Notes under the pieces: model-generated
Seen by the model: only the letters and a program-made list of their open reading frames with translations
The model's database searches: none
Told to the model about the DNA's origin: nothing
Assembly (NCBI GenBank): GCA_937125285.1
Contig: CAKZLH010000165.1
Coordinates: 37,295 to 101,294, forward strand
Reading direction: 5' to 3'
Length of the DNA: 64,000 nucleotides
DNA from: an uncultured Balneolaceae bacterium
GTDB taxonomy: Bacteria > Bacteroidota > Rhodothermia > Balneolales > Balneolaceae
Part shown: positions 16,169 to 46,447 of the stretch, piece by piece
Numbering within the stretch: position 1 is the first letter of the stretch
How the letters are laid out: each line of letters starts with the position of its first letter
Translations under genes and position numbers: made by a program

Positions 16169-16240
16169 TCCTCGGTAGCTCAGTGGCAGAGCAATCGGCT
16201 GTTAACCGATCGGTCGTTGGTTCGAATCCAACCCGGGGAG
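16169..16240 (+). tRNA. tRNA-Asn (anticodon GTT)
   Basis: Hand-folded cloverleaf: acceptor TCCTCGG/CCGGGGA (one G-U pair), D arm GCTCAGTGGCAGAGC, anticodon loop CTGTTAA, T arm GTTGGTTCGAATCCAAC, discriminator G; CCA is not encoded. Confidence 0.9.
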
Positions 16241-16404
16241 CTTCAAAAGCCTCAGATCTATGATCCGGGGCTTTTTTCGTTTAGGCCGATCAACGACCGA
16301 TCGGATCGGTCGTTTGGTTCTGCCGAAGGCATCCCTTTGGGAGAATCCAACCCGGGGAGCCAGGCCTATCAAAGATGCGAACATTCACAGTGTTCGCATT
16401 TTTT
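16233..16404. repeat. left 172-bp direct repeat (attL-like)
   Basis: Checked base by base against 46276-46447. Contains the last 8 nt of the tRNA, hairpin + T-run 16248-16278, a degenerate tRNA-Asn 3' half at 16296-16359 and hairpin + T-run 16377-16404. Confidence 0.9.
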
Positions 16405-17990
16405 ATTTCATCCCATTGTGCCTCTAATCGCTTGTCAGCGAGGTATTTTATATTGATTGTCCCATCGTTAGTTTTTTGGTTAACAAAAGTTTCGACGTTT
16501 TTGACCAAAACTTTCGTTAATTCTCTTCTCATTCCAATATCGCTGTCATTGTACTTAGTAATGAATTCATTCAACAATTTCTTGTGAGCTGTTTTGCCAA
16601 TTGGCTTTCTGAGCTTTAATTGTTCAAGCTGATTTTTTAAAAATTCTATCTCGTTTTCTTTTTCTTCAATATTAAGGATTATGGATTCCAACTGGGAGGC
16701 ATAAGTTTCCTTAAGTGTAGAACTAGCATTATCGGTTACAAGCTTAAGTGTGTTAGTCTTATCCTTCAGAAGAGACTTAAGTGTCTGCTGGATACGTTTG
16801 ATTCTAGATTCAAGTTCTTGAATTTGATCCTCACCTTCAAATTTGAGTCGCTTACGCATGGCTTCCATTAGCTCAGGCGCTTTCAACAAGCATTGTATCG
16901 TTTCTATTACAAAATCATCTAGTATGGTAACAGAAAGATCTTTTGGATTATGTTCTTCTGTACTTCCCATTTTGTTCTTCTCAGAGCATTTATAGTAGTA
17001 GTATTTTTGTTTAGCTCGGTTTGTAGTACTAGAGATAGTCATACCGCCTGCACAAAAACCACATGTACAAATACCTGTAAGTATAGCAGGGGTAGCACTT
17101 TTGATCGGCTGGTGCTTATTTGGATTTACATTATTCGCCTGTAAGAGCTTTTGAACTTGATCAAAAGTTTCCTGTTCAATAATTGAATCATGTATCCCTT
17201 TATAAATAGTGCCATCTATTTCGTATTGACCAATATATAAGCGCGAGTTTAATACACTCAAAATAGAACTGACATTGAATTTTCCACCACCTTTAGCTTT
17301 TCCTTTTCTTGATACATACGATTTATTACGAAAGCCTTCCGCATTAAGAGCTTTCGCAACATCTCTAGATGATTTCAGCTTCAAGTAGCGATAAAATATT
17401 TCCTTAACTAGGATTGATTCTTCTTCATTGATGATCAGTTTTCGATCGACGATATCGTATCCTAATCGAGGAGTACCTCCTGGCCAGAATCCTTGTTTTA
17501 CGGTTTCGATTCTTTTTTCTCGTGTTCGCTCTGAAACCATTTCCCTCTCAAATTCAGCAAAAACCAGTAGCATTCGCTGTAGCGCTTTACCAGCTGCGCT
17601 TGAGGTATCAATTTCCTGTGTTACGGCAGCAATATCTACTTCATATTCTTCTAATCGTTCAAAGAAATTCAAGAAGTCTTTGAGGCTCCGTGATACACGG
17701 TCAATTTTAGTAACTACCAGCAAGTCGAACTTTCCTGCTTTTGCGTCTTTTAGTAAGCGCTCTATACCTGGTCGTTTTAGGTCTTTTCCAGACTTGGTAT
17801 CCCTGTATACTTCACTAACCTTTATATGTGGTGAGCCTGGAGTCGTTATTTGATTTCTTTGCTCAATCCATGTTCTGCATTGATTCTCCTGACCATTCAG
17901 GGAGCTAAATTCATTATCAGACTGTTCGACGGTTGAAACCCTGATATAGATTGCGGCTTTGAGAGTTTGCTTTTTCTTCTTTTTTGCCAT
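16290..17990 (-). CDS. large serine recombinase (integrase)
   Basis: 566 aa; N-terminal resolvase domain AAIYIRVSTVEQ, recombinase domain, Cys cluster CTCGFCAGGM...YYYYKCS, coiled-coil tail; the last ~38 codons lie inside the direct repeat. Confidence 0.9.
   Translation of the reverse strand: MAKKKKKQTLKAAIYIRVSTVEQSDNEFSSLNGQENQCRTWIEQRNQITTPGSPHIKVSEVYRDTKSGKDLKRPGIERLLKDAKAGKFDLLVVTKIDRVSRSLKDFLNFFERLEEYEVDIAAVTQEIDTSSAAGKALQRMLLVFAEFEREMVSERTREKRIETVKQGFWPGGTPRLGYDIVDRKLIINEEESILVKEIFYRYLKLKSSRDVAKALNAEGFRNKSYVSRKGKAKGGGKFNVSSILSVLNSRLYIGQYEIDGTIYKGIHDSIIEQETFDQVQKLLQANNVNPNKHQPIKSATPAILTGICTCGFCAGGMTISSTTNRAKQKYYYYKCSEKNKMGSTEEHNPKDLSVTILDDFVIETIQCLLKAPELMEAMRKRLKFEGEDQIQELESRIKRIQQTLKSLLKDKTNTLKLVTDNASSTLKETYASQLESIILNIEEKENEIEFLKNQLEQLKLRKPIGKTAHKKLLNEFITKYNDSDIGMRRELTKVLVKNVETFVNQKTNDGTINIKYLADKRLEAQWDEIKNANTVNVRIFDRPGSPGWILPKGCLRQNQTTDPIGR
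16296..16359 (+). pseudogene. degenerate copy of the tRNA-Asn 3' half with a T-loop insertion
   Basis: ACCGATCGG..ATCGGTCGTTTGGTTC[TGCCGAAGGCATCCCTTTGGGAG]AATCCAACCCGGGGAG compared with the tRNA CCGATCGGTCGTTGGTTCGAATCCAACCCGGGGAG; no 5' half; a second copy lies at 46339-46402. Confidence 0.7.
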
Positions 17991-18122
17991 TTATGACTGT
18001 TTGTTGTTTAAAACTTGGTACCCTAAATAACCTAATAAATGCGCTAAATTCCTTTTTATTTGTATGATAGTGACATGAAGTGACACTGTTGCTAGTTATA
18101 TTAAAGGTGCTATACTATTATA

Positions 18123-18139
18123 TTGTAGAATAACTACAA
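18123..18139. promoter_or_regulatory. palindromic operator candidate O1 (TTGTAG-N5-CTACAA)
   Basis: Perfect 6-bp arms, located between the divergent recombinase gene and the defence operon. Confidence 0.45.
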
Positions 18140-18148
18140 TAAATTAAA

Positions 18149-18179
18149 TTTGCGCTAAAGAAAAATATATTTATCTTTG
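18149..18179 (+). promoter_or_regulatory. candidate Bacteroidota-type promoter of the defence operon (-33 TTTG / -7 TATCTTTG)
   Basis: TTTG at 18149-18152 and TAnnTTTG at 18172-18179, 19 nt apart, 17 nt upstream of the ATG at 18196. Confidence 0.4.
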
Positions 18180-18193: not shown

Positions 18194-18195
18194 TA

Positions 18196-18753
18196 ATGAT
18201 GAAATTAGGAAAAATATCAGATATAAGTTTTGGGTCAGTTACTAGAACTGGTTCAAAAGGGGAAATACCATGTCTTCAAGTTGCTAATATATCAACGGAT
18301 GGAGATTTGGATTTTGATAAGACTTATTATGTAGTAGGTAAGATGAAAGGAGATCATGTTTTACTTCCTTCAAACAGTATAGTATTACCGGCGAAGGGGC
18401 AAAAGTTTTCTTCTGCATTAATAACCGAAGAGCAGTCAAATACTTTTGTAGCGAGTTCATCACTATTTGTGATTCAAGTCAATACTCGTTCAATTATTCC
18501 TGAATATCTGCAATGGTACTTAAATCAGTCTAAAATTAAATGGCGGTTAGAATCACTGTCTACGGGTTCAAACATTTCCTCGTTATCAATAAAAGAGTTG
18601 AGGAATCTTAGAGTTGAGGTGCCTGAGTTAGATATTCAGAGAAAAATCGTTGAACTAAAGAAGATGCAGGAAAAGGAATTAGTTCTTATTCAAAGGCTTG
18701 GCCAAAAAAGAAAAAAATTAATCGAAGCAATAACGAAAGAGTTAATACAATGA
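18196..18753 (+). CDS. hsdS: type I R-M specificity subunit, half-size (single target-recognition domain)
   Basis: 185 aa with one TRD and one C-terminal conserved helix (RKIVELKKMQEKELVLIQRLGQKRKKLIEAI); its stop overlaps the hsdM start. Confidence 0.65.
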   Translation: MMKLGKISDISFGSVTRTGSKGEIPCLQVANISTDGDLDFDKTYYVVGKMKGDHVLLPSNSIVLPAKGQKFSSALITEEQSNTFVASSSLFVIQVNTRSIIPEYLQWYLNQSKIKWRLESLSTGSNISSLSIKELRNLRVEVPELDIQRKIVELKKMQEKELVLIQRLGQKRKKLIEAITKELIQ

Positions 18754-20240
18754 CAGAAGAAATTACCCAGGATAAAATCAACTCCGTAGCATGGAGTGCT
18801 TGCGATACATTTAGAGGTGTTGTTGATCCATCTGAATACAAGAACTACATACTTGTATTCTTGTTCATTAAATATCTATCTGATTTGAGAAAAGATCGCC
18901 TTACCGAGCTTAACGCTCAATATGATGGAGATGAGGTAAGAATTGATCGGGCTTTAAAGCGTGAGCGATTTGTATTGCCAAAGCACTGTACGTATGACCA
19001 CATCTATACAAAAAGAAATGAGGCGAATATCGGTGAAATTATTAACAAAGCACTCCATGATATTGAAGAGAATAACAAAGAGAAGTTGGAAGGCGTATTT
19101 CGGAATATTGATTTTAACTCCACTACAGCCCTTGGAGAAACAAAAGACCGTAATTCCCGCCTTAAAAGCTTAATTGAAGATTTTAGTGATCCAGTGTTGG
19201 ATTTCAGGCCTTCGAAAATTGGTAAGAAAGATGTTATTGGGAATACCTACGAGTATTTGATTCAGAATTTTGCTTCAGATGCAGGAAAGAAAGGAGGGGA
19301 GTTTTATACACCTTCCGAAGTGTCTGAGCTCATGGCGGAACTGTTGAAGCCACAGGAAAAAGAACGGTTGTACGATCCAACTTGTGGTTCCGGGTCATTA
19401 TTGATCAAACTAGCCAAACAGGTGGGGAGTCGTGATTATTCAGTATTTGGTCAGGAGAGCAACGGTAGTACCTGGGCATTATGCAAGATGAACATGTTCT
19501 TACACGACATTGATAATGCGCGGATCGAATGGGGCGATACTATTAAAAACCCAAAATTGTATATCGACGACAAACTCATGAAGTTTGACGTTGTGGCTGC
19601 AAATCCTCCGTTTTCCTTGAAAAAGTGGGGAGAAGCTGAAGCTGAGAATGATCGCTATAACAGGTTTTGGAGAGGAATTCCGCCGAAAACAAAAGGGGAT
19701 TACGGCTTCATTTCACATATGGTGGAAAGCCTTAACGAACATGGTAGGATGGTTGTAGTAGTTCCACATGGTGTACTTTTTAGAGGGAGTAGAGAAGCTA
19801 AGATCAGGGAGCAGTTTATAAAGGAAAACCTATTAGATGCTGTAATAGGCTTGCCCGAGCAATTATTCTTCGGGACTGGTATCCCGGCTGCTTTATTGGT
19901 TTTCAAAAAACGTCGTGAACGTGAAGATGTACTTTTTATCGATGCCAGTAAGGAATATCAGGATGGGAAAAAACAGAACAAACTGCGCGATCAAGACATT
20001 CAAAAAATTGTAAGCACGTATGAGGCTTTTGAGACGAAAGATAAGTACAGTTATGTTTCTACCATAGATGAAATAAAGGAGAACGAGTTTAATCTCAACA
20101 TCCCAAGGTATGTAGATACGTTTGAGGAAGAAGAAGAGATTGATATAGCTGAAGTACAGAAAGAGATTGAGAGCCTTGAGACAGAGCTTGCCGAAGTGAA
20201 AGGGAAGATGAATGAATACCTAAAGGAATTGGGGTTCTAA
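18750..20240 (+). CDS. hsdM: type I R-M N6-adenine DNA methyltransferase
   Basis: 496 aa; N-terminal HsdM domain, AdoMet motif DPTCGSGSLL, catalytic AANPPFS. Confidence 0.92.
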   Translation: MTEEITQDKINSVAWSACDTFRGVVDPSEYKNYILVFLFIKYLSDLRKDRLTELNAQYDGDEVRIDRALKRERFVLPKHCTYDHIYTKRNEANIGEIINKALHDIEENNKEKLEGVFRNIDFNSTTALGETKDRNSRLKSLIEDFSDPVLDFRPSKIGKKDVIGNTYEYLIQNFASDAGKKGGEFYTPSEVSELMAELLKPQEKERLYDPTCGSGSLLIKLAKQVGSRDYSVFGQESNGSTWALCKMNMFLHDIDNARIEWGDTIKNPKLYIDDKLMKFDVVAANPPFSLKKWGEAEAENDRYNRFWRGIPPKTKGDYGFISHMVESLNEHGRMVVVVPHGVLFRGSREAKIREQFIKENLLDAVIGLPEQLFFGTGIPAALLVFKKRREREDVLFIDASKEYQDGKKQNKLRDQDIQKIVSTYEAFETKDKYSYVSTIDEIKENEFNLNIPRYVDTFEEEEEIDIAEVQKEIESLETELAEVKGKMNEYLKELGF

Positions 20241-20241
20241 G

Positions 20242-21399
20242 ATGCCTGTAGAGAGAGCAAGAAAATCAGTTGGGTCAAAAATTTCAAGGCAACTCTGGAT
20301 GCAATCAGGAGGAAGGTGTGAATATTGTAACAAACTACTTTATAGGGATAGTCTTACCGAGCGCTTTATGAACAAGGCTTACATTTCACATATTATTGCC
20401 GCCAAAGAGGGATTTGTAAGGGGGGATTCAAAGTTGTCTGAAGAGCTGGAGGTGGCTTTTGAAAATCTAATGCTCTTATGTGATGAATGTCATAATAGAA
20501 TCGACAAAGCTGATCCTGCTCGACATACTGTTGAAGTGCTACAAAAAATTAAAAAGACTCATGAGGATCGGATTGAATTACTAACTGCGATAAAACCGAA
20601 GAATAAATCTCATATCCTAACCTTCATGGCAAAAATTGGTGAGCATCTTCCTGTAATCGACTTTCAGGATGCTGCAAATGCAATGCTTACCGATTATTAC
20701 CCCGCTTCCCATAGAATGGTTGAATTAGGTATTGAAAACTATCCTAAAGAGGATGATGAGGATGAATACTGGCAGGTACTTGAAAGTACTTTGACTGAGA
20801 ATTTCCAAACAAAAGTTTCCCCTTTGTTAAAATCAGGAGAAGTAAATCATTTTTCTGTTTTTGGGTTAGCCCCTCAACCATTATTGATAAGATTAGGGGT
20901 TCTTTTATCTGATATTAAACATGTTAGAGTTCATACTAATATAAGAGAGCCACAAACATGGAAACATCCCGAAGATGGAGACTCATTAGATTTTCAAATC
21001 GTTGAACCGGAGGATAAGACGGGGCTTCCAGTATTGAATATCTCTGTTACAGCGGATATTAATGAATCAAGGATTCATTCGGTTCTCGGAGAACATGTCT
21101 CCATTTGGAAGCTTACGGTTCCAATACCAGGGAAAGATCTTGTACGCTCTGATCGTACACTGCAGTATTTTAGAAAACGTGTGAGAGAGGTTTTTGAACA
21201 AATTAAACGAGCACATGGTGAGGATGAAACCTTGCGTGTATTCCCGGCAATGCCGAATTCAACAGCCATTGAGTTTGGAAGAGTTTGGCAACCTAAAGCT
21301 GAATTACCCATGATCATTTACGATCAGAATAGAAAACGGGACGGATTTATCAAGACGGTATCAATAATTAAACCCAAGAGGACTCAATATGTTAGCTGA
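20242..21399 (+). CDS. cap5: CBASS effector, HNH endonuclease fused to a SAVED domain (Cap5-like)
   Basis: 385 aa; HNH CEYCN...SHIIA...NLMLLCDECHNRID; C-terminal SAVED-like HFSVFGLAPQPLLIRLGVLL; starts 2 nt after the hsdM stop. Confidence 0.75.
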   Translation: MPVERARKSVGSKISRQLWMQSGGRCEYCNKLLYRDSLTERFMNKAYISHIIAAKEGFVRGDSKLSEELEVAFENLMLLCDECHNRIDKADPARHTVEVLQKIKKTHEDRIELLTAIKPKNKSHILTFMAKIGEHLPVIDFQDAANAMLTDYYPASHRMVELGIENYPKEDDEDEYWQVLESTLTENFQTKVSPLLKSGEVNHFSVFGLAPQPLLIRLGVLLSDIKHVRVHTNIREPQTWKHPEDGDSLDFQIVEPEDKTGLPVLNISVTADINESRIHSVLGEHVSIWKLTVPIPGKDLVRSDRTLQYFRKRVREVFEQIKRAHGEDETLRVFPAMPNSTAIEFGRVWQPKAELPMIIYDQNRKRDGFIKTVSIIKPKRTQYVS

Positions 21400-22909
21400 A
21401 ACCCAGGAAAAACAGAAATATGGTAAGGTACTTGATGAGATGGCTAAGTCTCTGGATCTTACCGAAAATCAATTCAAAGAGGCCGAAGACCGGTATAAAG
21501 CAGTAGGAGAGTATCTTTCAAGAGATGGATCCTCCTTGGCCAGTTTTAACCCTTCTATTGAACCACAAGGTTCTTTTTTATACGGAACAATGGTTCGGCC
21601 AATACTTGATGACGGGCACTACGATATCGATTTGATATGTATCCTTGAAAACCTCCCACTTACAGACACCCAGAAAGACCTAAAGAAAAAGGTTGGGAAA
21701 GAACTGAAAACAGGGAGATACGAACATTTATTGGATGAAGAAGGTCAGCGTTGCTGGACGTTGAATTACGCCGAAGGAACCAAGTTTCATATGGATATTC
21801 TTCCATCAACACCCGACCAATTTCGTAGGACTATTTATGAAGGTAGAGTAGATGAGTCATACTATAATTATGCGCTACGGATGACGGATAAAGAATCTGA
21901 AAGTTATGAATCATCTAATCGTATGGATTGGCCTAAAACTAATCCAAAAGGGTACTCAAAATGGTTTAAAGACCAAATGAGACCACAGTATGATAAACTG
22001 ATTAAGGAAGCAGCTTTGCAATTGAATGCCAGTGTTGAAGATGTGCCACATTGGAAAGTAAAAACTCCGCTACAACGAGCAATCCAGATTCTGAAACGTC
22101 ACCGGGATATTATGTTTGGAGGTGATGATGAAAAGCCAATATCTATCATTCTTACTACTCTTGCCGCTAAAGCATATCGAGGAGAAAGTAATGTTTTTGA
22201 TGCTTTGAAAACGATTCTCGGTGGTATGGAGCATTACATTGAGGAAGAATTCAATGGGTATAATCGTATCAAAGTGGTTAAGAACCCAGTGAATCCGGAA
22301 GAAAACTTTGCAGATAAATGGGAGCATAACCCCACCCTGAAAGATAACTTTTATCTCTGGTTAGCTAAGGCCAAAACAGATCTGATTGAAGTGTTTGATC
22401 TGGGTACCATCTATTCTGCAAAATCCCAACTCGAAACTTCGATGGGTAAGAGTTTAGTCGAAAATGCATACTCAAAAATTGGGGTACCAACACTATCACA
22501 GCCAAGAAAAGCCAGAAATCTACCAGTTGCCACCCATAAACAAGCTCCAAAATGGCCGGTAGTTAAAACGCACAGTGTCTCGGTTATCGGTAGATATAAT
22601 GAAAATGGAACATGGAAGTACATTTCGGAGGGTACGGTAATACCTAAGGGATGCAGTTTAATGTTCGCTGCAAATACCTCTGTGACTGGAAACTTTGAAG
22701 TGTTTTGGCAGATTGTGAACACTGGGTATGAAGCACAAATGGCTAAGTGCTTACGTGGGCAAATACTGCACTCAAAAACTGCGGGTAGAGGCGGGTTGAA
22801 ACAGAAAGAAGCAACCGCCTATAAAGGCACTCACTGGATTGAGTGCTTTATTGTACAGGGTGGAGTATGCGTGGCCAGAAGTGGTGAATTTATCGTGGAG
22901 ATTGGTTGA
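21389..22909 (+). CDS. CD-NTase/SMODS nucleotidyltransferase with a C-terminal extension (AGS-C-like)
   Basis: 506 aa; Pol-beta NTase motifs QGSFLYGTMVRP...DIDLICIL and KFHMDILPS; about 130 extra C-terminal residues; overlaps cap5 by 11 nt. Confidence 0.75.
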   Translation: MLAETQEKQKYGKVLDEMAKSLDLTENQFKEAEDRYKAVGEYLSRDGSSLASFNPSIEPQGSFLYGTMVRPILDDGHYDIDLICILENLPLTDTQKDLKKKVGKELKTGRYEHLLDEEGQRCWTLNYAEGTKFHMDILPSTPDQFRRTIYEGRVDESYYNYALRMTDKESESYESSNRMDWPKTNPKGYSKWFKDQMRPQYDKLIKEAALQLNASVEDVPHWKVKTPLQRAIQILKRHRDIMFGGDDEKPISIILTTLAAKAYRGESNVFDALKTILGGMEHYIEEEFNGYNRIKVVKNPVNPEENFADKWEHNPTLKDNFYLWLAKAKTDLIEVFDLGTIYSAKSQLETSMGKSLVENAYSKIGVPTLSQPRKARNLPVATHKQAPKWPVVKTHSVSVIGRYNENGTWKYISEGTVIPKGCSLMFAANTSVTGNFEVFWQIVNTGYEAQMAKCLRGQILHSKTAGRGGLKQKEATAYKGTHWIECFIVQGGVCVARSGEFIVEIG

Positions 22910-39466: not shown

Positions 39467-40039
39467 ATGAGTAATCCATATCAAGACTTTTTTAGCCGGA
39501 ATAATCTCCAAATGAACAAGCCCGGTAAAACATTAGTTGATGTATTAGACTGGCTGGAAGCGTCTGATCTTATGAGGGAGGGAGGATTGGATACTATTCA
39601 GTCAATGCTGCATGAGGTACACCAGTTTTCTTTTAAAACACCGGCAGAGTTTGTTGGGATGATCCGGATTTATCTACATGTGTTCCATCGTTTTCCACTT
39701 CATACAGGGCTGCGTATAAGCTACTTTAGCCTATGGCAGGATTTTTTGGATAGGTATTATACCGAGTTATCCATAGCCTCTATAAAGGCAGCACAATATA
39801 TATTGGAGCATCAAGTGAGGTATCTTCAAGTGTATTGTGATGGATACGATGCACTTCGTGTTACTTGTGAAGGGCTAGTCTACCGGATTCAAGCCCTCAC
39901 TGATCCAGTGCGAAAAACTATTCCCGAAGTAGATAATATAGATGTTCAGTCGGTAAAAGAAGTTTACCAAGTTAATCTTTCCGATCAGGAAGCTCTGGAT
40001 GTGGCAAGCCAGCAAATTTTATACAACCTTCGAAAATAG
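39467..40039 (+). CDS. hypothetical protein
   Basis: 190-aa ORF divergent from the primase operon; ends in TAG. Confidence 0.45.
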   Translation: MSNPYQDFFSRNNLQMNKPGKTLVDVLDWLEASDLMREGGLDTIQSMLHEVHQFSFKTPAEFVGMIRIYLHVFHRFPLHTGLRISYFSLWQDFLDRYYTELSIASIKAAQYILEHQVRYLQVYCDGYDALRVTCEGLVYRIQALTDPVRKTIPEVDNIDVQSVKEVYQVNLSDQEALDVASQQILYNLRK

Positions 40040-40094: not shown

Positions 40095-42356
40095 CTACTT
40101 TTTGGTAAACCAATATCTAAATGGTTGATGCATTATAGTTAGATTTAGAGGAATTCCTACTCCACTCATACTTTGTTTACCTTTTTCGTCTTTCGGTAAA
40201 TGAGGGAAATGATGGCTTTCACTCTTAATGGTACCTAATGTTCTAAACCACTTATATAATTGGGTGTTATTTGGATAATATTCCTGCAATGGGGTATTTT
40301 TCCAAATATCTTTTGGAAACCAGCAGAAATTGCCGTCAATTACATAAGCATCAAAAGTAGAGTCATTAGACCAGTCCTTAAGCATTTTAGCAAAAGCTCG
40401 TTGCTCTTTCATACTGTGTGCTAAAGAGTAGTTCCAAATACTATCCAAACCGAACAAGATTTCTTGTTCCACTTTTGAAATGCCCCCAGCCATTTCGTCG
40501 ATAATCTTTCCTATCACGATAAGGGGCTTAGCCAATTGAAATTTTCGGTTGTCCAGTTTTTTACCGGATATCGGCATTTGAATATCAGTGGGGATCGATC
40601 CAATGGTATTTAGGATAATCTGGGTATGTAAAAGTGGAAGAGCAAGTGCTGAAGTTCTTATTAATTCTTGCTGATGTTCTACTTGTCGGTCAAACTCCAT
40701 AAACCCATCGAGTTGAATCTGTTTTGGTTTTTCCTCAGTGGGTATGGGGATTGTTCTAGAGGAAAGAGTATCCAGGTTTATTCCCCCAGTTCCACCAAAA
40801 GCTTTTGGAGAGTAGGTATGAAGTGTCTGAGAGGATTTCCCAGCTTTTTTAGTATATGTTCCTTTGTAGTTATAGCCACCGTTTAAAAATCGGGAAAGAT
40901 CATCATGAGTATTTTTAGAGGAAGAAAAATCCTCGAATTCATCAACGCACAATGTGGAAGAACTCAAATCAACAAGTTCTGTCATTGCCGCAACAGTAGC
41001 TTTTGTTTTGACTTCCCCGTTAAAAGAAAGAGCAGCAATAACATCAAGAATGGTGGTTTTTCCACTTCCTTTAATTCCTTGGAAATGTAAGTAGGGATAA
41101 GCGGGAAATGCTTTGTAAAAATAAGTTCCAAGAATCCATGCAGTAAGAACCGAATACCATGAATCTTCTTTGAGGTATATGTAACGCTTTATGAAATCCA
41201 GAGTGGATGTAAACAATTCATCAAATGGAACAATGCGTTCTTCCTGGATCCTTTGAATAATATCTGGTGTACAGACTGTACGAAATGGCTCAAAATGTCG
41301 GAATTCAACAAATTCAAAAGCCTTCAGATCGTTAACCGAGAGAATACGAAAAGGATTAGATATCGCCACCGAGTCTGCATCACCAATCTGAAAGAAAAAC
41401 CTATTTCCCTGAATATCTTGGGCGGGGTCAATTTCTGGAATCCTTTGAGAACGAGCAGCATTATATGCTTTTTTAGAAGGGATATCTCCAGGAATCAGGG
41501 AATGGGAGAATTTTCTGATTCTGTTTTCAAAAGCCTCAATCCCATATTTAGCCAAGAAATCCTCGGCTTTTTGTTTACCAAAAGCGCCTGCTGAATTGAT
41601 TCGATATACAGAAATGCCAGCCTTAAGACAAAGCTCTGCAAACGGATAGATAGAATAATCAAAAGTGACTCCTTCATGATCTGCAAGTAGGTAAACATCT
41701 GTTTCAGAAAGCAAATCAGAGTAATTGAAATGGGAAAGTTCATTTTGACTTGGCAGAGAGAGGGCCTTTATACCTTGCTCATTGAAATAATCGGCCACTA
41801 AAGGATCCCAGGTTACCAATACCGAGGTAGGATTTTGTTGGAGAATATTTGGATGAATTCGTTGTACCCCATAGGATTCCCATTGTATTCCTATTTCATT
41901 AATAACGACATCTCGGGTAGCAATGCAGTATCCTGCCGAAGACAAACAATGGTAACGTAGAATATTATCCGAAGCATCTCCTTCTTTCCACACTCTCATT
42001 GACTTATATCCGTCTATCAAGTTAGCATGGTTGGAGGGGGTGTCACAAAAGTCAGCTACTCTTGTAAAGCTTGTTTCATAAGTTTCAGCAACCGCTAATC
42101 CATCAGGTTCAGTTATTCCATATATGAGATCTAAAAGCTCAGATACTGGTGTAAGTTTATTATCTACTTCGATATAGTCCTTTTGATATCGTAAAGAACG
42201 CTTATTGCCAAAACGATCAATAAAATTCAGGTCAATGGGATACTCTTCAAGAAAATAGGCCTCCTGATCAAAGTCAGGAAAAGTAATACGTACAAATTCA
42301 CCTTGTTTCTGAGTGGAGAGGAGCTTTTTATGTGCCTTTTTGAAATTAATACCCAT
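40095..42356 (-). CDS. Toprim-like + DUF3631-like P-loop protein
   Basis: 753 aa; Toprim-like DVYLLADHEGVTFDY...GISVYRI...AEDFLAKYG; Walker A GIKGSGKTT, Walker B LCVDEFED, then LNGGYNYKG...SPKAFGG...LSSRTIPIP as in DUF3631. Confidence 0.55.
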   Translation of the reverse strand: MGINFKKAHKKLLSTQKQGEFVRITFPDFDQEAYFLEEYPIDLNFIDRFGNKRSLRYQKDYIEVDNKLTPVSELLDLIYGITEPDGLAVAETYETSFTRVADFCDTPSNHANLIDGYKSMRVWKEGDASDNILRYHCLSSAGYCIATRDVVINEIGIQWESYGVQRIHPNILQQNPTSVLVTWDPLVADYFNEQGIKALSLPSQNELSHFNYSDLLSETDVYLLADHEGVTFDYSIYPFAELCLKAGISVYRINSAGAFGKQKAEDFLAKYGIEAFENRIRKFSHSLIPGDIPSKKAYNAARSQRIPEIDPAQDIQGNRFFFQIGDADSVAISNPFRILSVNDLKAFEFVEFRHFEPFRTVCTPDIIQRIQEERIVPFDELFTSTLDFIKRYIYLKEDSWYSVLTAWILGTYFYKAFPAYPYLHFQGIKGSGKTTILDVIAALSFNGEVKTKATVAAMTELVDLSSSTLCVDEFEDFSSSKNTHDDLSRFLNGGYNYKGTYTKKAGKSSQTLHTYSPKAFGGTGGINLDTLSSRTIPIPTEEKPKQIQLDGFMEFDRQVEHQQELIRTSALALPLLHTQIILNTIGSIPTDIQMPISGKKLDNRKFQLAKPLIVIGKIIDEMAGGISKVEQEILFGLDSIWNYSLAHSMKEQRAFAKMLKDWSNDSTFDAYVIDGNFCWFPKDIWKNTPLQEYYPNNTQLYKWFRTLGTIKSESHHFPHLPKDEKGKQSMSGVGIPLNLTIMHQPFRYWFTKK

Positions 42357-44523
42357 GAGGCTTCTCCAGTAGGTTGGTAATTATTTCATCGGTGAGGGGA
42401 TCTCCATCTTTAGTGTGGACACGTAAATATCTTAGCAGTTGTTGGAAGAACCCAGTGACTTCTGCTTGAGAATATGGACGGTCGGGATGCGCAAAATGAG
42501 CTACTACTAGTTCGACAGTCTTTTCACCTACCGTATTTTTAATGGAGCTTAATAGCCCGGAAAACTGGGTTCGATACCCTTCCTCATCAGGGTATGTGAC
42601 TTCGACATGAAGTCCAAAACGGCCAGTACGTTTTAAAGCTGGATCAATGTCTTCAAATAAATTGGTAGCAGCCATGCATAGTACACCTTCATTGTCATTT
42701 GCACCACTCAACTGGGTAAGCATAGCATTTATAGCATCATTTTGGTGAGCTTCAGCACTTGCTTGTCTATTACCCAAGCTATCGATTTCATCAAAGAATA
42801 AAAGAATGGGACGAAATAGCCTTGCCTTTTCAAAGAGTGAGGCAATATTCTTGCTTGTATCTCCAACATACTTAGATTTGAGTTCTCCAAGATTGACTTC
42901 CATAAACAATACATTGAGTTCATTAGCAATCGCATTTGCCAGAGAGGTTTTACCTGTTCCCGGTTTTCCATGTAGCAAAATTCCATTAGCCTGAATCTCG
43001 GGTAGATCTTGACGGTATATTTCAGGTTGTATCGAAAATAGGAGTTCTTGCTTTAGTTGGTTATAGATCTTTTCGGCCCCATATAGTTCATCAATAGTAA
43101 GAGTGGGTATCGTAATGTTAAGCTCCAGTTCACACAACGGAGTAACTGATTTTAAAGCTTCCTCAAAGTCCGAGGATATGATAAATGAGGAAGTTTCAGT
43201 TGAAGTTTGTTTAATACGATGTCGTTGATGTGCGACAACTTTTTCGATAAAGGTCTTAATATCTGCTCCTACAAAGCCAATTATACGATTGGAGAGGTCT
43301 TTCAAATACTGGTGTGTAATCTGACTAGTATCTACTTGTAGCTTTTTAACTAGAGAACCAATTATCTCAAATCTGCCAGTAGAATCGGGTGGGGGAACGG
43401 CAATTTTCGTGTCAAAACGACCGGAACGAAGTACAGCAGTATCTAACTCGGATATATAGTTAGTTGCAGCAATGACCAAAACATGGGGTGCACGTTTTTG
43501 GGGGTCGAGTTCTTGCAGTAAAGTATTTACATTTTCCTTGTCGTGGGTGCTCATACCGGAGCGATGCCCGGCTATGGCATCAATTTCATCGATAAAAAGA
43601 ATTGCTCCCTGAGAATAAGAAGCAGCTTCTTGAAATTTCTCTGCGATTTTTAGTGAGGTTTCATGAACATAAGGAGAGCCTATGCCTTCCAAGTCCATTC
43701 GAACTAAAGGAAGATCCAAATCATGGGCGATAGCTTTTGCAAGCTGAGTTTTACCTGTTCCAGGAGGACCGTACAAAAGGACACCACCTACTGGAGTTGG
43801 ATCGGAGTATAATTGTTGATTAAGAAAGTCGCTGAAAGGATGAATAACCTCAATAAGAAGACGTTCAATAACAGTATCTATTCCCTTAAGCTCATTTAGT
43901 GAGCTTTTGGAAAAAGGTCTCCGGGATCTTAAAGGAGGATAACTGGTTAGCTGTGGATCATTGATTGGATTAACCACAGACTCTAAGGAACCTGATTCTT
44001 CTGATTTTTCCGACTTATTGTCTTTGTTTGATTCTGAAGGTCGAGGCAGATAATTCCGTTTGATTTCAGTGTTGTATGTAAGAATACCGGCTTCCATTTT
44101 GGGTGAAATCTTACTTACTTCAAACACAAGCCCTTCTACATAAACCTTTTGATTTTTGAATACGATAACCTTGTCGTCTATCTCATGGGTGATGAGAGGA
44201 AATTCCGGATCATCATCATTTTCATCTCCTTCGGTTTTTATTTCTTGTAGGGAAACCTTGTTAATAAATGAGAGGCTCGGAAAAGAAAGAAATCCGTATT
44301 CTTTATCATCACAATAAAGTTTGCTCCATGAGTCATCAACGATTACGACTTCTTGTTGATGGTACTTGGCATGTACAGGTGCAATTCGCCCCTCTATGTG
44401 TTTGTCGGTTTCCCATTCTATTCTACATTCACGGCCATACTTAGCTTGAGACTGTATAATGAGTCTTGGGCTTACCCCAATTCCTTCAAAACCGGGAACA
44501 TAAATGATTCGGACTTTTTGCAT
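42346..44523 (-). CDS. CDC48/VCP-like tandem AAA+ ATPase
   Basis: 725 aa; two AAA modules (LLYGPPGTGKTQLA...ILFIDEID and LLHGKPGTGKTSLA...LLFFDEID) after a ~190-aa N-domain and an acidic/Ser-rich linker; overlaps the downstream gene by 11 nt. Confidence 0.8.
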   Translation of the reverse strand: MQKVRIIYVPGFEGIGVSPRLIIQSQAKYGRECRIEWETDKHIEGRIAPVHAKYHQQEVVIVDDSWSKLYCDDKEYGFLSFPSLSFINKVSLQEIKTEGDENDDDPEFPLITHEIDDKVIVFKNQKVYVEGLVFEVSKISPKMEAGILTYNTEIKRNYLPRPSESNKDNKSEKSEESGSLESVVNPINDPQLTSYPPLRSRRPFSKSSLNELKGIDTVIERLLIEVIHPFSDFLNQQLYSDPTPVGGVLLYGPPGTGKTQLAKAIAHDLDLPLVRMDLEGIGSPYVHETSLKIAEKFQEAASYSQGAILFIDEIDAIAGHRSGMSTHDKENVNTLLQELDPQKRAPHVLVIAATNYISELDTAVLRSGRFDTKIAVPPPDSTGRFEIIGSLVKKLQVDTSQITHQYLKDLSNRIIGFVGADIKTFIEKVVAHQRHRIKQTSTETSSFIISSDFEEALKSVTPLCELELNITIPTLTIDELYGAEKIYNQLKQELLFSIQPEIYRQDLPEIQANGILLHGKPGTGKTSLANAIANELNVLFMEVNLGELKSKYVGDTSKNIASLFEKARLFRPILLFFDEIDSLGNRQASAEAHQNDAINAMLTQLSGANDNEGVLCMAATNLFEDIDPALKRTGRFGLHVEVTYPDEEGYRTQFSGLLSSIKNTVGEKTVELVVAHFAHPDRPYSQAEVTGFFQQLLRYLRVHTKDGDPLTDEIITNLLEKPHGY

Positions 44524-44725
44524 GGCCGCAACCTATATGTTGTTATTGTGATTTATGTGACCGTAGGGGAAAAATCGTGCCAATTAAGAACTCAAGTTTA
44601 TTTTAAGCTACATCAGAGTCCTTTTTTGAAAATATCATTCAATATAATGCAAGCTAGTGTAGTACTGCCATTTCTTCAGGCTCTATCATAACAAAAATGA
44701 GCTTAAGCCTTCAAACCTAATAATT

Positions 44726-45706
44726 ATGGCTTTATTCAGAGCTAATTTGGTTCATTTTGATTTGAGGAATTACATTCCAAATATCATTTGCATTATAAGC
44801 GTTATCAATTCAGAATCCAGCAATTCAAACATGCCAAATACCAAAACAATTTACACTAACCCAAGAGATGTAATTGCGCAGATTTACAAGATTCTCTTCA
44901 CCCAGTCTGATTGGAGTGAACCACAAAAGAAAGATTTTCAACGTTGGAAGAAACGAACAAGCCTTGATGAAAAAGATAATGAGTGGTTCCAGAGGCTATT
45001 CCGAGAAATATTAGTAGGTTTATCAGATCAGTTTCCTATCGTAACTAAAGATGGTGTCAATTTTATAGCCAAGGAAGCGGATTTATATTCAGGGCAACTA
45101 TTTGCTTTTACAATCTCTCATCCTCTTTGGTTTAAAGTTCGGCCTTTTTTTGCAGGTTGGATTATTGAATATCACAAGGAGAGTGTGGATAAACAGGAAT
45201 TGGCGATTAACACCCTAAGTAACCTACTGCATAATTGGAAAGACTTTGAGAACCGTCTAGAGGAAGAATCTGTAACCTTTGAGAGAAAACTAACTGATTT
45301 ATTTGGGAAGTACTGGTATTTACCATCTCAGGCAAATAGCGAAGATGAGCAACGTATTATTTTACCAATAGAAAAACTTATGACACGAATCGAACTAATC
45401 ATTCAAGCTGACAGTACGCATGATTTAATCGAAAGAGTCTCAGAGGCAGATAGGGATTACAATGGAGTTAAAAAAGCAGTGTACAAACTAAAGAAAGGCA
45501 AACCTATTTCAATTGAACAGCTTAGAAAACTAAGGAAACTACAAATGGGTAAGTACTATGAAATGGGTGAATATTTCAAAGACTGTGCTAATGGATTTTA
45601 TATTACTGCGTTACTTGTTTCATCTGTAGTCAGTGAAGCTATTACTGAGCTCTCTAAGTATGATCCCTCTTTAAAGGATACTTTATGTAAGCTTTCAATT
45701 GAGTAA
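44726..45706 (+). CDS. hypothetical protein
   Basis: 326-aa ORF; an alternative start at 44831 (MPNTKTIY) is plausible. Confidence 0.45.
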   Translation: MALFRANLVHFDLRNYIPNIICIISVINSESSNSNMPNTKTIYTNPRDVIAQIYKILFTQSDWSEPQKKDFQRWKKRTSLDEKDNEWFQRLFREILVGLSDQFPIVTKDGVNFIAKEADLYSGQLFAFTISHPLWFKVRPFFAGWIIEYHKESVDKQELAINTLSNLLHNWKDFENRLEEESVTFERKLTDLFGKYWYLPSQANSEDEQRIILPIEKLMTRIELIIQADSTHDLIERVSEADRDYNGVKKAVYKLKKGKPISIEQLRKLRKLQMGKYYEMGEYFKDCANGFYITALLVSSVVSEAITELSKYDPSLKDTLCKLSIE

Positions 45707-45964
45707 TGTCCATTACTTGGTCTAAAGTTTTAGCGCGTTTGAAAGTATTATTAGCTCAGCCAGATTAATGGTAGATAAACTAAAACTAAACTTATCAATA
45801 TGTTACATTCGAATAACATCAAACAAGCTAACAATGACCGGCAATCTGATCATCCTGATCCAGGTGGAAACTGGCCAAGCACTACTGGTGAACCTTCCGG
45901 TTCTGGAAGAGGTAACGGTATCTAATAATTCAAAAAGGATGTGTAAGTAATTTTGCATCCTATT

Positions 45965-46264
45965 CTATTTCAAAACCTTAGTCACCCAAGCCCGGCTTAC
46001 CCCGAACTTTCGAGCAAGCTCGGCTTGGTTTTTTACTTTACCAGAGTCTAGTAATTTCCTATAAAGCTTAGCCTGCCGGGCCCGTGTATTTTTCATATCG
46101 GTCCTTGCAGGTTGGTTAACATATTTTCGTGTTAACTCCGTGTTCGCATGATCAAAAAAAGGAAGTGATTTTTGGAGCTTTTTTAGGTCAATTTCAAAAC
46201 GAGTGCCATTAGAACCGCCTTTTATAACCCCAATAGGCCATTTTATTTCGAACAATATTCGCAA
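45965..46264 (-). CDS. small HTH DNA-binding protein next to the right repeat (possible directionality factor)
   Basis: 99 aa; C-terminal NQAELARKFGVSRAWVTKVLK is a resolvase/Hin-type HTH; the role is inferred from position only. Confidence 0.45.
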   Translation of the reverse strand: MRILFEIKWPIGVIKGGSNGTRFEIDLKKLQKSLPFFDHANTELTRKYVNQPARTDMKNTRARQAKLYRKLLDSGKVKNQAELARKFGVSRAWVTKVLK

Positions 46265-46275
46265 GTTTGCAACTG

Positions 46276-46447
46276 CCGGGGAGCTTCAAAAGCCTCAGAT
46301 CTATGATCCGGGGCTTTTTTCGTTTAGGCCGATCAACGACCGATCGGATCGGTCGTTTGGTTCTGCCGAAGGCATCCCTTTGGGAGAATCCAACCCGGGG
46401 AGCCAGGCCTATCAAAGATGCGAACATTCACAGTGTTCGCATTTTTT
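46276..46447. repeat. right 172-bp direct repeat (attR-like)
   Basis: Identical to 16233-16404; the flank differs immediately outside both ends (aactg|ccgggg versus ccaac|ccgggg; tttttt|ttt versus tttttt|att). Confidence 0.9.

What the first reader, a model, noticed from the sequence alone, without database searches (positions are those of the whole stretch)
16233..46447. Satellite-like integrative element whose only Prim-Pol/VirE replication operon appears translationally locked
The element has a recombinase, a recombination module (YqaJ exonuclease, DUF669-like), DUF932, RadC, a primase-helicase, candidate iterons and a large defence cargo. I recognised no capsid, portal, terminase, tail, lysis or conjugation genes. 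That profile resembles phage satellites or mobilisable islands that also serve as defence hotspots (P4-like, PICI-like). Inference (speculative): under the standard code, the ten UGA codons would keep the primase operon untranslated. Infection by a TGA-recoded phage that brings a tRNA(UCA) suppressor could then unlock island replication. In that model the helper's genetic code is the induction signal.
Basis: inference. Interest (0 to 1): 0.8.

Follow-up and report, generated by a model that had tools for sequence, protein, structure and literature searches.

The report
Island replication genes written with UGA-as-tryptophan
A 30-kb mobile island in a marine Balneolaceae bacterium spells ten tryptophans of its primase and a neighbouring gene with the stop codon TGA, although the host and the rest of the island use TGA as stop; this spelling is conserved under selection in related islands, so these two genes can probably be translated only when something outside the island makes the cell read TGA as tryptophan.

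Summary
The island lies between 176-nt direct repeats (16233-16408 / 46276-46451) beside tRNA-Asn. It carries a large serine recombinase, defence cargo and no recognisable capsid, lysis or conjugation genes.

Two adjacent minus-strand genes hold 4 + 6 in-frame TGAs and no other internal stop: a Prim-Pol/VapE primase (37294-39330) and a 174-aa gene I call g2 (36633-37157). No other gene in the window has one, and 12 of 36 end in TGA.

These are not pseudogenes:
- The TGAs fall on conserved Trp columns.
- Related Balneolaceae islands, down to 40-43% protein identity and including the cultured Fodinibius salinus, keep intact frames with TGAs only.
- TGA and TGG swap between relatives.
- dN/dS is 0.08-0.21.
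- A second island in one genome has an unrelated replicase that is also TGA-interrupted.
- TGAs are preferentially followed by A.

No tRNA lies in the island or within 10 kb of the relatives' cassettes. I infer a replication module translatable only when UGA is decoded as Trp by a factor supplied from elsewhere. Whether a recoded helper phage supplies it is untested.

An MCM/Cch-like helicase and an NGO0469-family protein are encoded in standard code, and no iterons were found.

The parts
16169..16241 (+). tRNA-Asn(GTT), the integration target. Its 3' 18 nt, GAATCCAACCCGGGGAGC, recur at 16343-16360 and 46386-46403.
   Evidence: ARAGORN; Rfam tRNA, 69 bits; pattern search gave 3 exact copies against 0.04 expected
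16233..16408 (.). Left copy of the 176-nt direct repeat (island boundary). It contains the 3' end of the recombinase gene.
46276..46451 (.). Right copy of the 176-nt direct repeat (island boundary).
16290..17990 (-). Large serine recombinase (Resolvase + Recombinase + Zn-ribbon domains). Ends in TGA.
   Evidence: Pfam; NCBIfam CcrB/XisF-like, below the equivalog cut-offs
18196..31534 (+). Defence cargo: HsdS fragment 18196-18753, HsdM 18750-20240, CBASS HNH-SAVED effector 20242-21399, CD-NTase 21389-22909, HsdS 22906-24168, SLATT_4 24497-24991, SMODS 24991-25806, HsdR 26305-29514, YgjP peptidase 29511-30209, NOV_C/PDC-S36-like protein 30230-31534.
   Evidence: Pfam; PADLOC
32758..33000 (+). 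HTH_3 (XRE-type) regulator.
   Evidence: Pfam
33023..33538 (-). Standard code.
   Evidence: NCBIfam NF046043, 106.8 bits against a cut-off of 75
33554..34522 (-). YqaJ-like exonuclease.
   Evidence: Pfam
34704..35522 (-). DUF932 protein.
   Evidence: Pfam
35955..36407 (+). RadC-like JAB domain protein.
   Evidence: Pfam
36633..37157 (-). g2: a 174-aa protein of unknown function with a helical, possibly HTH, N-terminus. It has 6 in-frame TGAs (37091, 37016, 37007, 36941, 36836, 36761) and 1 TGG.
   Evidence: dN/dS is 0.21 against L002. Homologues P0121 and P0122 were called with code 4. The AF2 model has pLDDT 60 and no significant fold match.
37294..39330 (-). Prim-Pol (NrS-1 polymerase HBD) + VapE/D5-like primase-helicase, 678 aa. 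It has 4 in-frame TGAs (39276 = W19, 39189 = W48, 38106 = W409, 37671 = W554) and 9 TGG, and ends TAA TAA.
39397..39425 (-). Promoter-like site TTGACA-17-TAGAAT (11 of 12 matches) upstream of the primase ATG at 39330.
   Evidence: a consensus match only
39467..40039 (+). 190-aa protein of unknown function, transcribed divergently from the primase. It co-varies with the primase and g2 as one cassette: 42% identity in L003, where flanking genes are 79-89% identical.
   Evidence: no family hits
40095..42356 (-). 753-aa MCM/Cch-like AAA+ helicase related to DUF3631 proteins. Standard code.
   Evidence: homologues; AF2 pLDDT 84; Foldseek matches to SCCmec Cch 5dgk (E = 1.4e-5), MCM2-7, PriRep1 and Mpox E5
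42346..44523 (-). Double AAA+ (CDC48/IetA-like) ATPase, overlapping the start of the helicase gene. Standard code.
   Evidence: Pfam; PADLOC; NCBIfam
44726..45706 (+). 326-aa protein of unknown function, conserved in L029 and L002.
45965..46264 (-). 99-aa small protein with a weak Mor/late-activator/ParB-like HTH, conserved in related islands.
   Evidence: all weak hits

Best explanation
The primase-helicase and g2 are a working replication cassette written in 'code 4' (UGA = Trp), inside an island and a host that otherwise read UGA as stop.

Shown:
- The ten UGAs stand at tryptophan positions.
- The frames are kept intact and under purifying selection in many related Balneolaceae islands.
- UGA and UGG interchange between relatives.
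- The island has no tRNA of its own.

Inferred: full-length primase and g2 are made only when the cell acquires an efficient UGA-to-Trp decoder. That could be a tRNA-Trp(UCA) suppressor, or an RF2 block that lets tRNA-Trp read UGA. The decoder must come from outside the island. Until then ribosomes stop at codon 19 of the primase and codon 23 of g2, so priming, and with it autonomous replication, stays off. Meanwhile the recombinase, the MCM/Cch-like helicase, the AAA+ ATPase, the recombination genes and the defence cargo, all in standard code, can be expressed.

The A that usually follows the UGAs is the context known to favour suppression over RF2 termination. That fits decoding in competition with a live release factor.

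Most speculative step: the decoder is brought by an infecting or co-resident TGA-recoded phage or other mobile element. The code state of the cell would then be the licensing signal for island replication.
For: TGAs stand at tryptophan positions:
- TGA#1-3 of the primase align with strongly conserved Trp columns (the WxxW motif, TW, and KW = W409, which is at least 90% conserved) in 19 homologues.
- No ATG, GTG or TTG lies in frame between codon 49 and codon 118. The catalytic DxD region therefore cannot be made by restarting after the TGAs.

Related loci keep stop-free frames with TGAs only:
- L001 and L029 (97-99% identity) have the same four TGAs.
- L002 (88%) has TGA at W19, W48, W330 and W555, but TGG at the W409 column.
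- L003 (43%) has TGA at W19, W48 and W404.
- Fodinibius salinus L060 and its relative L062 (40%) have four TGAs, including the W48 column.
- g2 is conserved with aligned TGAs, and with swaps, in L001, L029, L002, L003, L057 and L058.

Purifying selection:
- Primase dN/dS is 0.11 (dS 0.585) for the window against L002.
- Four of the five inter-TGA segments have dN/dS of 0.04-0.15.
- The exception, codons 49-118, has 0.51 from only 14 changes.
- g2 dN/dS is 0.21.
- Type D primase dN/dS is 0.08 at dS 1.31.
- W codons swap TGA/TGG in 2 of 19 cases, against 16% A/G third-base change in conserved K/E/Q codons.

Independent recurrence:
- A second island in the same genome as L001 (L059) has a g2 homologue with 2 TGAs and an unrelated 826-aa replicase with 3 TGAs.
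- All its other genes were called intact in standard code.

Context and mutation spectrum:
- 9 of 10 window TGAs are followed by A, against 36% of 247 TGG codons in other genes (p = 7e-4).
- Over three cassette types the counts are 15 of 21 against 9 of 35 (Fisher p = 0.0018).
- Transitions are symmetric (83 A/G, 80 C/T) and GA is not depleted, so this is not deaminase hypermutation.

No decoder in the island:
- ARAGORN and Rfam (E <= 1) find only tRNA-Asn in the island.
- No tRNA lies in the stretches fetched around seven related cassettes, up to 10 kb each side where the contig allows. L060-L063 were not scanned.

Precedent:
- Recoded phages and prophages in standard-code hosts use suppressor tRNAs, and recoding has been proposed as a translational switch (bioRxiv 10.1101/2021.08.26.457843).
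Against: - No decoder was identified. I could not scan the host genomes for tRNA(UCA), tRNA-Trp variants or prfB.
- No recoded phage, and no phage related to these islands, was found in IMG/VR or INPHARED.
- In known recoded phages, replication genes are usually the standard-code part and late genes are recoded. This is the reverse arrangement.
- If the UGAs were only a lock, one or two would be enough. TGA/TGG exchange at near the synonymous rate in type A fits drift in a permissive decoding environment as well as it fits selection for a lock.
- There is no expression, proteomic or copy-number evidence.
Confidence: 0.5

Rival explanations
1. Host-intrinsic leaky decoding used as an attenuator. 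The Balneolaceae tRNA-Trp(CCA), for example a variant with a 4-bp anticodon stem, A9C or G24A, or a chromosomal suppressor tRNA, reads UGA at moderate efficiency all the time or under stress. The multiple UGAs then simply hold the replication initiator at a very low, tunable level. No helper is involved.
For: - tRNA-Trp(CCA) variants that read UGA occur in many standard-code bacteria, and suppressor tRNAs occur in about 0.3% of standard-code genomes (PMC13092985).
- The A after the UGA favours near-cognate readthrough by tRNA-Trp as well as suppression (my own knowledge: Kopelowitz et al. 1992, J Mol Biol).
- Two such islands coexist in one genome (L001 and L059), and the trait is spread across Balneolaceae genera. 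That is easy to explain if the decoder belongs to the lineage.
- TGA/TGG swaps run at roughly the synonymous rate.
Against: - A third of the genes in the window end in TGA, with no avoidance of TGA-A. That would be costly if UGA were read efficiently.
- With ordinary leak of a few per cent or less per site, 4 to 6 UGAs in series would give about 1e-6 to 1e-9 of full-length product.
- In-frame TGAs are confined to the replication cassette and absent from every other island and host gene examined.
Confidence: 0.3
2. Sensor or decoy for code-switching phages. The recoded genes are not primarily for island spread. They are translated only when a recoded phage turns on UGA suppression, and they then trigger island amplification, raising the dosage of defence genes, or an abortive response. 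This is a variant of the main model with a defensive pay-off.
For: - The same evidence as for trans-decoding applies.
- The window, L002 and the F. salinus-type islands carry dense defence cargo next to the cassette: type I R-M, CBASS, SMODS/SLATT, TIR/SLATT/Nmad2/MazG and OLD-like genes.
Against: - No recoded phage is known for this lineage.
- Primase and helicase genes are ordinary replication functions.
- The minimal island L001 (integrase, 219-aa protein, helicase-like protein, primase, g2, RadC) has no recognised defence cargo.
Confidence: 0.1
3. Decaying pseudogenes, or hypermutated genes. The operon was inactivated by nonsense mutations, TGG to TGA, for example by a TC-specific DNA deaminase.
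For: - TGG to TGA is a single G-to-A change.
- The bias towards A after the TGA would fit a GA-to-AA mutational context.
- Standard annotation fragments these genes.
Against: - Across about ten independent assemblies there are no frameshifts and no TAA or TAG, down to 40% identity.
- dN/dS is 0.08-0.21, including downstream of the TGAs.
- Changes from TGA back to TGG are seen.
- The transition spectrum is symmetric and GA is at its expected frequency.
- TGG-A codons remain in the same genes.
- The effect is confined to 2.7 kb.
Confidence: 0.02
4. The UGAs are removed or bypassed by another route: A-to-I mRNA editing (UGA to UGI, read as UGG), selenocysteine insertion, or termination-reinitiation giving separate polypeptides.
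For: - A-to-I editing would restore Trp.
- TGA#3 is followed directly by ATG in the window.
Against: - The only known bacterial mRNA editor, TadA, needs a U-A-C-G loop context (my own knowledge), which is absent at these sites.
- Ten SECIS elements are implausible, and the columns are Trp, not Cys or Sec.
- TGA#3 is followed by ATT, ATT and TTG in relatives.
- No restart codon exists after TGA#1 or TGA#2 before the catalytic motif.
Confidence: 0.03

Closest known systems
Stop-codon-recoded phages and prophages of standard-code hosts (TGA-to-Trp Jade, Sapphire and Agate phages; TAG-to-Gln crAss-like, Lak, Garnet and Topaz phages; Borges et al., bioRxiv 10.1101/2021.08.26.457843)
   Same: - A mobile element lives in a standard-code bacterium.
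- A subset of its genes carries in-frame stop codons at sense positions.
- The integrase or recombinase stays in standard code.
- Recoding has been proposed there as a translational switch between life-cycle states.
   Different: - This is not a phage: no structural or lysis genes were found.
- It has no suppressor tRNA, TrpRS or release factor of its own.
- Only two genes are recoded, and they are replication genes, which in most recoded phages are the standard-code part.
- The host lineage is Balneolaceae and at least one instance is from an ocean metagenome (TARA), rather than gut.
- The decoder must come from outside the element.
SCCmec-type replicating islands (Ccr large serine recombinases plus the Cch MCM-like helicase) and SaPI Pri-Rep modules
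   Same: - A large serine recombinase whose best NCBIfam hits are CcrB and XisF.
- A 753-aa protein whose best structural match is the SCCmec Cch helicase.
- A separate primase function.
- No transfer genes of its own.
   Different: - The recombinase scores far below the Ccr equivalog cut-offs (173 bits against 900).
- It integrates at tRNA-Asn, not rlmH.
- The primase is a Prim-Pol/VapE fusion rather than CCPol-MP.
- It is found in Balneolaceae.
- No recoding is known in SCC elements.
P4-like and PICI-like phage satellites
   Same: - An integrase and a Prim-Pol or D5/VapE-type primase-helicase.
- Small regulators and no full structural gene set.
- Defence cargo hotspots.
- The minimal relative L001 is about 8.5 kb.
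   Different: - No Sid/Psu/Delta, capsid-remodelling, TerS, AlpA or Stl-type genes were detected.
- No helper is known.
- At 30 kb the window island is larger than typical satellites.
- Induction in known satellites works through protein anti-repressors or transcription, not through the genetic code.
E. coli CP4-type integrative islands (DUF932 - antirestriction - RadC/YeeS clusters); comparison from my own knowledge
   Same: DUF932 and RadC-like genes next to an integrase in an island targeted to a tRNA.
   Different: No CbtA/CbeA toxin-antitoxin pair or antirestriction gene was detected here, and those islands are not recoded.

Membership tests
Stop-codon-recoded phage or prophage | In-frame reassigned stop codons at conserved sense positions, in genes under selection | tested here: met
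Stop-codon-recoded phage or prophage | A phage genome with capsid, portal, terminase, tail and lysis genes, which are the mainly recoded ones | tested here: not met
   Pfam, PHROGs and NCBIfam found none across the island ORFs. The recoded genes are a primase and a small unknown protein.
Stop-codon-recoded phage or prophage | Code-change machinery encoded by the element itself (suppressor tRNA, with or without aaRS or RF); common in these phages but not universal | tested here: not met
   Only tRNA-Asn at the border; none in the fetched flanks of seven relatives
Phage satellite (P4-like, PICI, cfPICI, PLE) | Integrase plus its own replication module (primase-helicase), and lack of a complete virion gene set | tested here: met
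Phage satellite (P4-like, PICI, cfPICI, PLE) | Helper-exploitation genes (capsid size redirection, small terminase or pac/cos, helper-responsive repressor or AlpA) | tested here: not met
   No family hit was found. Several small or unknown ORFs remain unassigned: 190 aa, 326 aa, 99 aa, 69 aa and g2.
Phage satellite (P4-like, PICI, cfPICI, PLE) | Induction, replication and packaging that depend on a helper phage | not testable with these tools
   This needs infection experiments or read-depth and junction data from the source samples.
SCC-like element | Ccr-family large serine recombinase | tested here: inconclusive
   The domain architecture is met. NCBIfam CcrB scores 173 bits against a 900 cut-off.
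SCC-like element | Cch-type MCM-like self-loading helicase | tested here: met
   AF2 pLDDT 84; Foldseek top hit 5dgk Cch, E = 1.4e-5, probability 1.0, but TM only 0.23-0.35
SCC-like element | Integration at the 3' end of rlmH (orfX) | tested here: not met
   It is integrated at tRNA-Asn.
ICE or IME | Relaxase or oriT, with or without type IV secretion genes | tested here: not met
   No Pfam or NCBIfam hit
Genome with genetic code 4 | TGA absent as a terminator and used as Trp throughout the genome | tested here: not met
   12 of 36 window genes end in TGA, several with ATGA stop/start overlaps. There is no in-frame TGA outside the two genes.
Pseudogene | Relaxed constraint: dN/dS near 1, mixed stop types, frameshifts, loss in relatives | tested here: not met

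The most novel reading that the evidence does not exclude
Balneolaceae carry a family of integrative islands that use the cell's genetic-code state as the licence for replication. Their interchangeable replication cassettes, of at least four types including two unrelated replicases, are kept in UGA = Trp code with no decoder of their own. They fire only when a still-undiscovered TGA-recoded phage, or another code-switching element, supplies a suppressor tRNA. The islands would then be the first satellites, or defence islands, induced by a change in genetic code.
Probability: 0.3. Interest if true: 0.92.

Novelty: new variant of a known kind. Interest (0 to 1): 0.8.

Why it matters
Stop-codon recoding as a regulatory device has so far been described for phages that carry their own suppressor tRNA. 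Here a non-phage island keeps only its replication cassette in the alternative code and carries no decoder. That implies cross-talk between elements, or between host and element, at the level of the genetic code.

If the decoder comes from a phage, this would be a new induction principle for satellites or defence islands. It would also point to recoded phages in marine or saline Balneolaceae, where none are known.

If the decoder belongs to the host, it would be a case of a standard-code bacterium reading UGA as Trp efficiently for a defined gene set.

Either way it makes a practical point. Annotation pipelines fragment these genes or call them pseudogenes, so similar cases are probably being missed. 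A cultured carrier, Fodinibius salinus, makes the question directly testable.

Tried and rejected
- **Pseudogene or hypermutation:** rejected by the comparative frames, dN/dS and the substitution spectrum.
- **Code-4 host:** rejected by TGA terminators in host and island genes.
- **L025, an IMG/VR contig that seemed to have in-frame TGAs in a Prim-Pol homologue:** this was a frame error in my extension, not recoding.
- **Iterons:** none found by TRF or the repeat finder in the intergenic regions.
- **Suppressor tRNA:** not found in the island or in the stretches fetched around seven related cassettes (ARAGORN; Rfam at E <= 1).
- **Looking for a helper in IMG/VR:** I searched with the primase, a primase alignment, a g2 alignment, YqaJ, the 753-aa helicase, the L059 replicase and the tRNA-Asn att core. 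There were no close relatives. INPHARED gave only distant VapE or Prim-Pol hits.
- **g2 function:** no Pfam, PHROG or NCBIfam hit. The AF2 model was poor (pLDDT 60) and gave no significant fold match.
- **Source record of the window:** exact look-ups failed.
- **Literature:** I found no report of recoded satellites or islands, or of Balneolaceae code anomalies.

Full report
**1. The observation**

The element is bounded by a 176-nt direct repeat, 99% identical, at 16233-16408 and 46276-46451. The left copy begins inside the last 9 nt of the only tRNA in the window, tRNA-Asn(GTT) at 16169-16241. The 18-nt 3' end of that tRNA occurs three times, at 16224, 16343 and 46386.

Profile searches of the island ORFs (Pfam, PHROGs, PADLOC, NCBIfam) give this content:
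- a large serine recombinase, 16290-17990(-)
- a 13-kb defence block: a type I R-M system with a CBASS operon inserted between hsdM and hsdS, a second SMODS/SLATT pair, a YgjP peptidase and a NOV_C protein
- an XRE-type HTH protein
- YqaJ, DUF932 and RadC
- a Prim-Pol (NrS-1 HBD) + VapE primase-helicase
- a double AAA+ ATPase and several unknown proteins

No capsid, portal, terminase, tail, lysis, relaxase or T4SS family was hit.

**2. The ten TGAs**

On the minus strand, the frame 39330 to 37294 encodes a 678-aa primase-helicase. It is interrupted only by four TGAs, at 39276, 39189, 38106 and 37671, and it ends TAA TAA. After a 136-nt gap, a second frame (37157 to 36633, 174 aa, 'g2') has six TGAs and a single TGG.

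From base composition alone, frames of this length without TAA or TAG are expected at about 7e-14 and 1e-4. No other long ORF in the 64-kb window has an in-frame TGA. Twelve of 36 genes, in both host and island, terminate in TGA, several with ATGA stop/start overlaps. The host and the rest of the island therefore use the standard code.

**3. The TGAs are tryptophan codons in genes under selection**

In an alignment with 19 homologues (at most 37% identity), TGA#1-3 fall on the conserved WxxW, TW and KW tryptophans; W409 is conserved in at least 90% of sequences. No in-frame ATG, GTG or TTG lies between codon 49 and codon 118. The catalytic DxD region therefore cannot be made by restarting after the TGAs.

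Scans of genome and metagenome collections recovered relatives only in Balneolaceae:

| Locus | Source | Primase identity to window |
|---|---|---|
| L001 | MAG chromosome OZ245822.1 | 98-99% |
| L029 | Ga0189275 metagenome contig | 97-98% |
| L002 | Balneola sp. | 88% |
| L003 | Balneolaceae MAG | 43% |

All keep a 679-682-codon frame with TGAs as the only internal stops:
- L001 and L029 have the same four TGAs.
- L002 has TGA at W19, W48, W330 (TGG in the window) and W555, and TGG at W409.
- L003 has TGA at W19, W48 and W404.

g2 is likewise conserved with aligned TGAs, and with further TGA/TGG swaps, in L001, L029, L002 and L003 and in two short contigs: L057 (a Logan run) and L058 (TARA oceans). 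On those two contigs gene callers had in fact used code 4.

Nei-Gojobori estimates, treating TGA as Trp:

| Comparison | dN/dS | Note |
|---|---|---|
| Primase, window vs L002 | 0.11 | dS 0.585 |
| Primase, four of the five inter-TGA segments | 0.04-0.15 | |
| Primase codons 49-118 | 0.51 | only 14 changes |
| g2, window vs L002 | 0.21 | |

The transition spectrum is symmetric (83 A/G against 80 C/T) and GA dinucleotides are not depleted. A deaminase-type hypermutation origin is therefore excluded.

**4. The trait belongs to a replication cassette, not to one gene lineage**

In L003 the flanking genes are 79-89% identical to the window, but the block of 190-aa gene, primase and g2 is only 42-43% identical. 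That is a cassette exchange, and both alleles are recoded.

L001 carries the window-type cassette (98-99% identity) in a minimal island of about 8.5 kb. That island has a tyrosine integrase instead of the serine recombinase.

Looking up homologues of the neighbouring 753-aa protein revealed two more cassette types:
- **L059**, a second island in the same genome as L001. A g2 homologue (2 TGA, 4 TGG) precedes an unrelated 826-aa replicase with a PTGLGKT / DEDP helicase core and no Pfam hit (3 TGA, 6 TGG). All other genes there were called intact in standard code.
- **Fodinibius salinus**, a named genome assembly of a cultured species (GCA_008124865.1; L060, with relatives L061-L063). Its primase is 40% identical to the window's and has four TGAs; a g2-like ORF has two. 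Between L060 and L062 the primase has dS 1.31 and dN/dS 0.08, and all 4 TGA and 7 TGG codons are unchanged.

The Trp of the TW[ST][ST][FY] motif (W48 in the window) is TGA in every Prim-Pol cassette type.

W-codon swaps occur in 2 of 19 cases in type A, against 16% third-base A/G change in conserved K/E/Q codons. That is consistent with near-synonymous behaviour. In type D the figures are 0 of 11 against 28% (p = 0.03), which hints at some conservation of the TGA or TGG state.

**5. Context**

Nine of the ten window TGAs are followed by A. The same is true of 36% of the 247 TGG codons in 36 other genes (binomial p = 7e-4) and of 2 of 10 TGG codons in the same two genes (Fisher p = 0.005). Over three independent cassette types the counts are 15 of 21 against 9 of 35 (p = 0.0018).

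From my own knowledge (Kopelowitz et al. 1992; Bossi 1983; Miller and Albertini 1983), an A immediately 3' of the stop codon is the context most favourable to suppression and readthrough, and least favourable to release-factor action. This fits decoding that has to compete with RF2 in a standard-code cell.

**6. No decoder is present in cis**

ARAGORN, and Rfam at E <= 1, find no tRNA in the island other than the border tRNA-Asn. No tRNA lies in the stretches fetched around seven related cassettes (L001-L003, L029, L057-L059), up to 10 kb each side where the contig allows. The F. salinus-type loci L060-L063 were not scanned.

With ordinary leak of a few per cent or less per site, 4 to 6 UGAs in series would give a vanishing yield. 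Yet selection shows that the full-length proteins matter. The simplest reading is that efficient UGA-to-Trp decoding is supplied in trans, at least under some condition.

**7. Other replication functions, and what kind of element this is**

The 753-aa protein next to the cassette has DUF3631/Toprim-containing relatives. A confident AF2 model (pLDDT 84) finds its best structural matches in the SCCmec Cch helicase, MCM2-7, PriRep1 and poxvirus E5 (E = 1e-5 to 1e-4). It is an MCM/Cch-like replicative helicase, in standard code.

Together with the Ccr/XisF-like serine recombinase, this gives an SCC-like flavour. The primase-helicase, small size of relatives and defence cargo give a satellite-like flavour. 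No defining helper-exploitation, packaging or transfer gene was found, so I do not file the element under either family.

What is locked is the priming enzyme and g2, not every replication protein. No iterons were detected. A promoter-like TTGACA-17-TAGAAT lies upstream of the primase.

**8. Who decodes?**

This is unresolved. I found no relative of the island genes, and no Balneolaceae tRNA-Asn att core, in IMG/VR. INPHARED gave only distant hits.

Known recoded phages and prophages carry their own suppressor tRNAs. They mostly recode late genes and keep replication genes standard.

A 2026 survey shows that tRNA-Trp(CCA) variants that read UGA, and occasional suppressor tRNAs, exist in standard-code bacteria. 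A host-encoded decoder, making the UGAs a constitutive or stress-tuned attenuator, is therefore a serious rival. Against it stand the normal use of TGA, including TGA-A, as a terminator and the strict confinement of in-frame TGAs to the cassette.

My probabilities:
- about 0.5 for a conditional lock opened in trans; within that, the phage-helper version is about 0.3 overall
- about 0.3 for host-intrinsic leaky decoding
- about 0.1 for a defensive 'code-switch sensor' variant
- under 0.05 for pseudogenes, editing or other bypass

**9. Novelty and verdict**

In the literature library I found no report of non-phage islands with a recoded replication cassette, of satellites induced through the genetic code, or of code anomalies in Balneolaceae. 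The phenomenon is real and conserved. It is most simply described as a new variant of stop-codon recoding used as a translational switch. It is also experimentally accessible in Fodinibius salinus.

The helper-phage mechanism remains an attractive hypothesis without direct support.

Noticed in passing
window 16224-16241, 16343-16360, 46386-46403; direct repeat 16233-16408 / 46276-46451: The 176-nt boundary repeat is unusually long for a serine-recombinase element. It holds a second copy of the 18-nt tRNA-Asn 3' end, a degenerate tRNA 3' half, and the last 39 codons of the recombinase gene. This suggests repeated or tandem integrations at this tRNA, or an attP that overlaps the recombinase gene.
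   Followed up: partly
window 18196-29514: A complete CBASS operon (HNH-SAVED effector 20242-21399, CD-NTase 21389-22909) is inserted between hsdM and hsdS of a type I R-M system, with overlapping stop and start codons. A truncated extra HsdS (18196-18753) precedes hsdM, and a SLATT_4 + SMODS pair sits before hsdR.
   Followed up: partly
L003 9293-12828 compared with window 36633-40039: The block of 190-aa gene, primase and g2 is only 42-43% identical between the window and L003. The genes on both sides (AAA+, helicase, RadC, DUF932) are 79-89% identical. Replication cassettes are exchanged as units between islands.
   Followed up: yes
L001 5126-13369 (OZ245822.1): The same primase/g2 cassette, at 98-99% identity, sits in a minimal island of about 8.5 kb. 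That island has a tyrosine integrase, a 219-aa protein, a 750-aa helicase-like protein (27% identical to the window's) and RadC. It lies between the host AdoHcyase gene and an O-antigen-ligase-like gene.
   Followed up: partly
L059 13067-16223 (same genome as L001): A second island in one genome has a g2 homologue followed by an unrelated 826-aa replicase. The replicase has a PTGLGKT / DEDP helicase core and no Pfam hit. Both genes carry in-frame TGAs, and the gene order is swapped relative to the window.
   Followed up: partly
L060 12481-15110 (Fodinibius salinus GCA_008124865.1, VNHY01000001.1): The genome assembly of a named, cultured species carries a recoded primase (4 TGA) and a g2-like ORF (2 TGA). 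They sit next to AAA+ and helicase genes and a TIR/SLATT/Nmad2/MazG defence cluster. The gene calls on record for this stretch are short fragments. This is a tractable organism for experiments.
   Followed up: partly
P0121/L057, P0122/L058, L063 5470-7536: On short metagenomic contigs, gene callers chose genetic code 4 and predicted full-length g2 and primase proteins. On long contigs the same genes are fragmented. Protein databases therefore hold these recoded products only by accident.
   Followed up: yes
window 42346-44523 and 40095-42356; L029, L002, L003, L059-L063: A double AAA+ (CDC48/IetA-like) ATPase gene overlaps the start of the MCM/Cch-like helicase gene in the window. The pair recurs next to the recoded cassette in all the related islands listed. 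It is absent from minimal island L001. The role of the ATPase is unknown.
   Followed up: partly
window 34526-34648 and 34559-34580: A short G/C-rich repeat (AGGTGGAGG, 2.4 copies) just upstream of the YqaJ gene encodes a poly-Pro run on one strand and a poly-Gly run on the other.
   Followed up: no
window 61000-64000: GC content rises to 0.48-0.50, against about 0.40 for the rest of the window. I did not examine what lies there.
   Followed up: no
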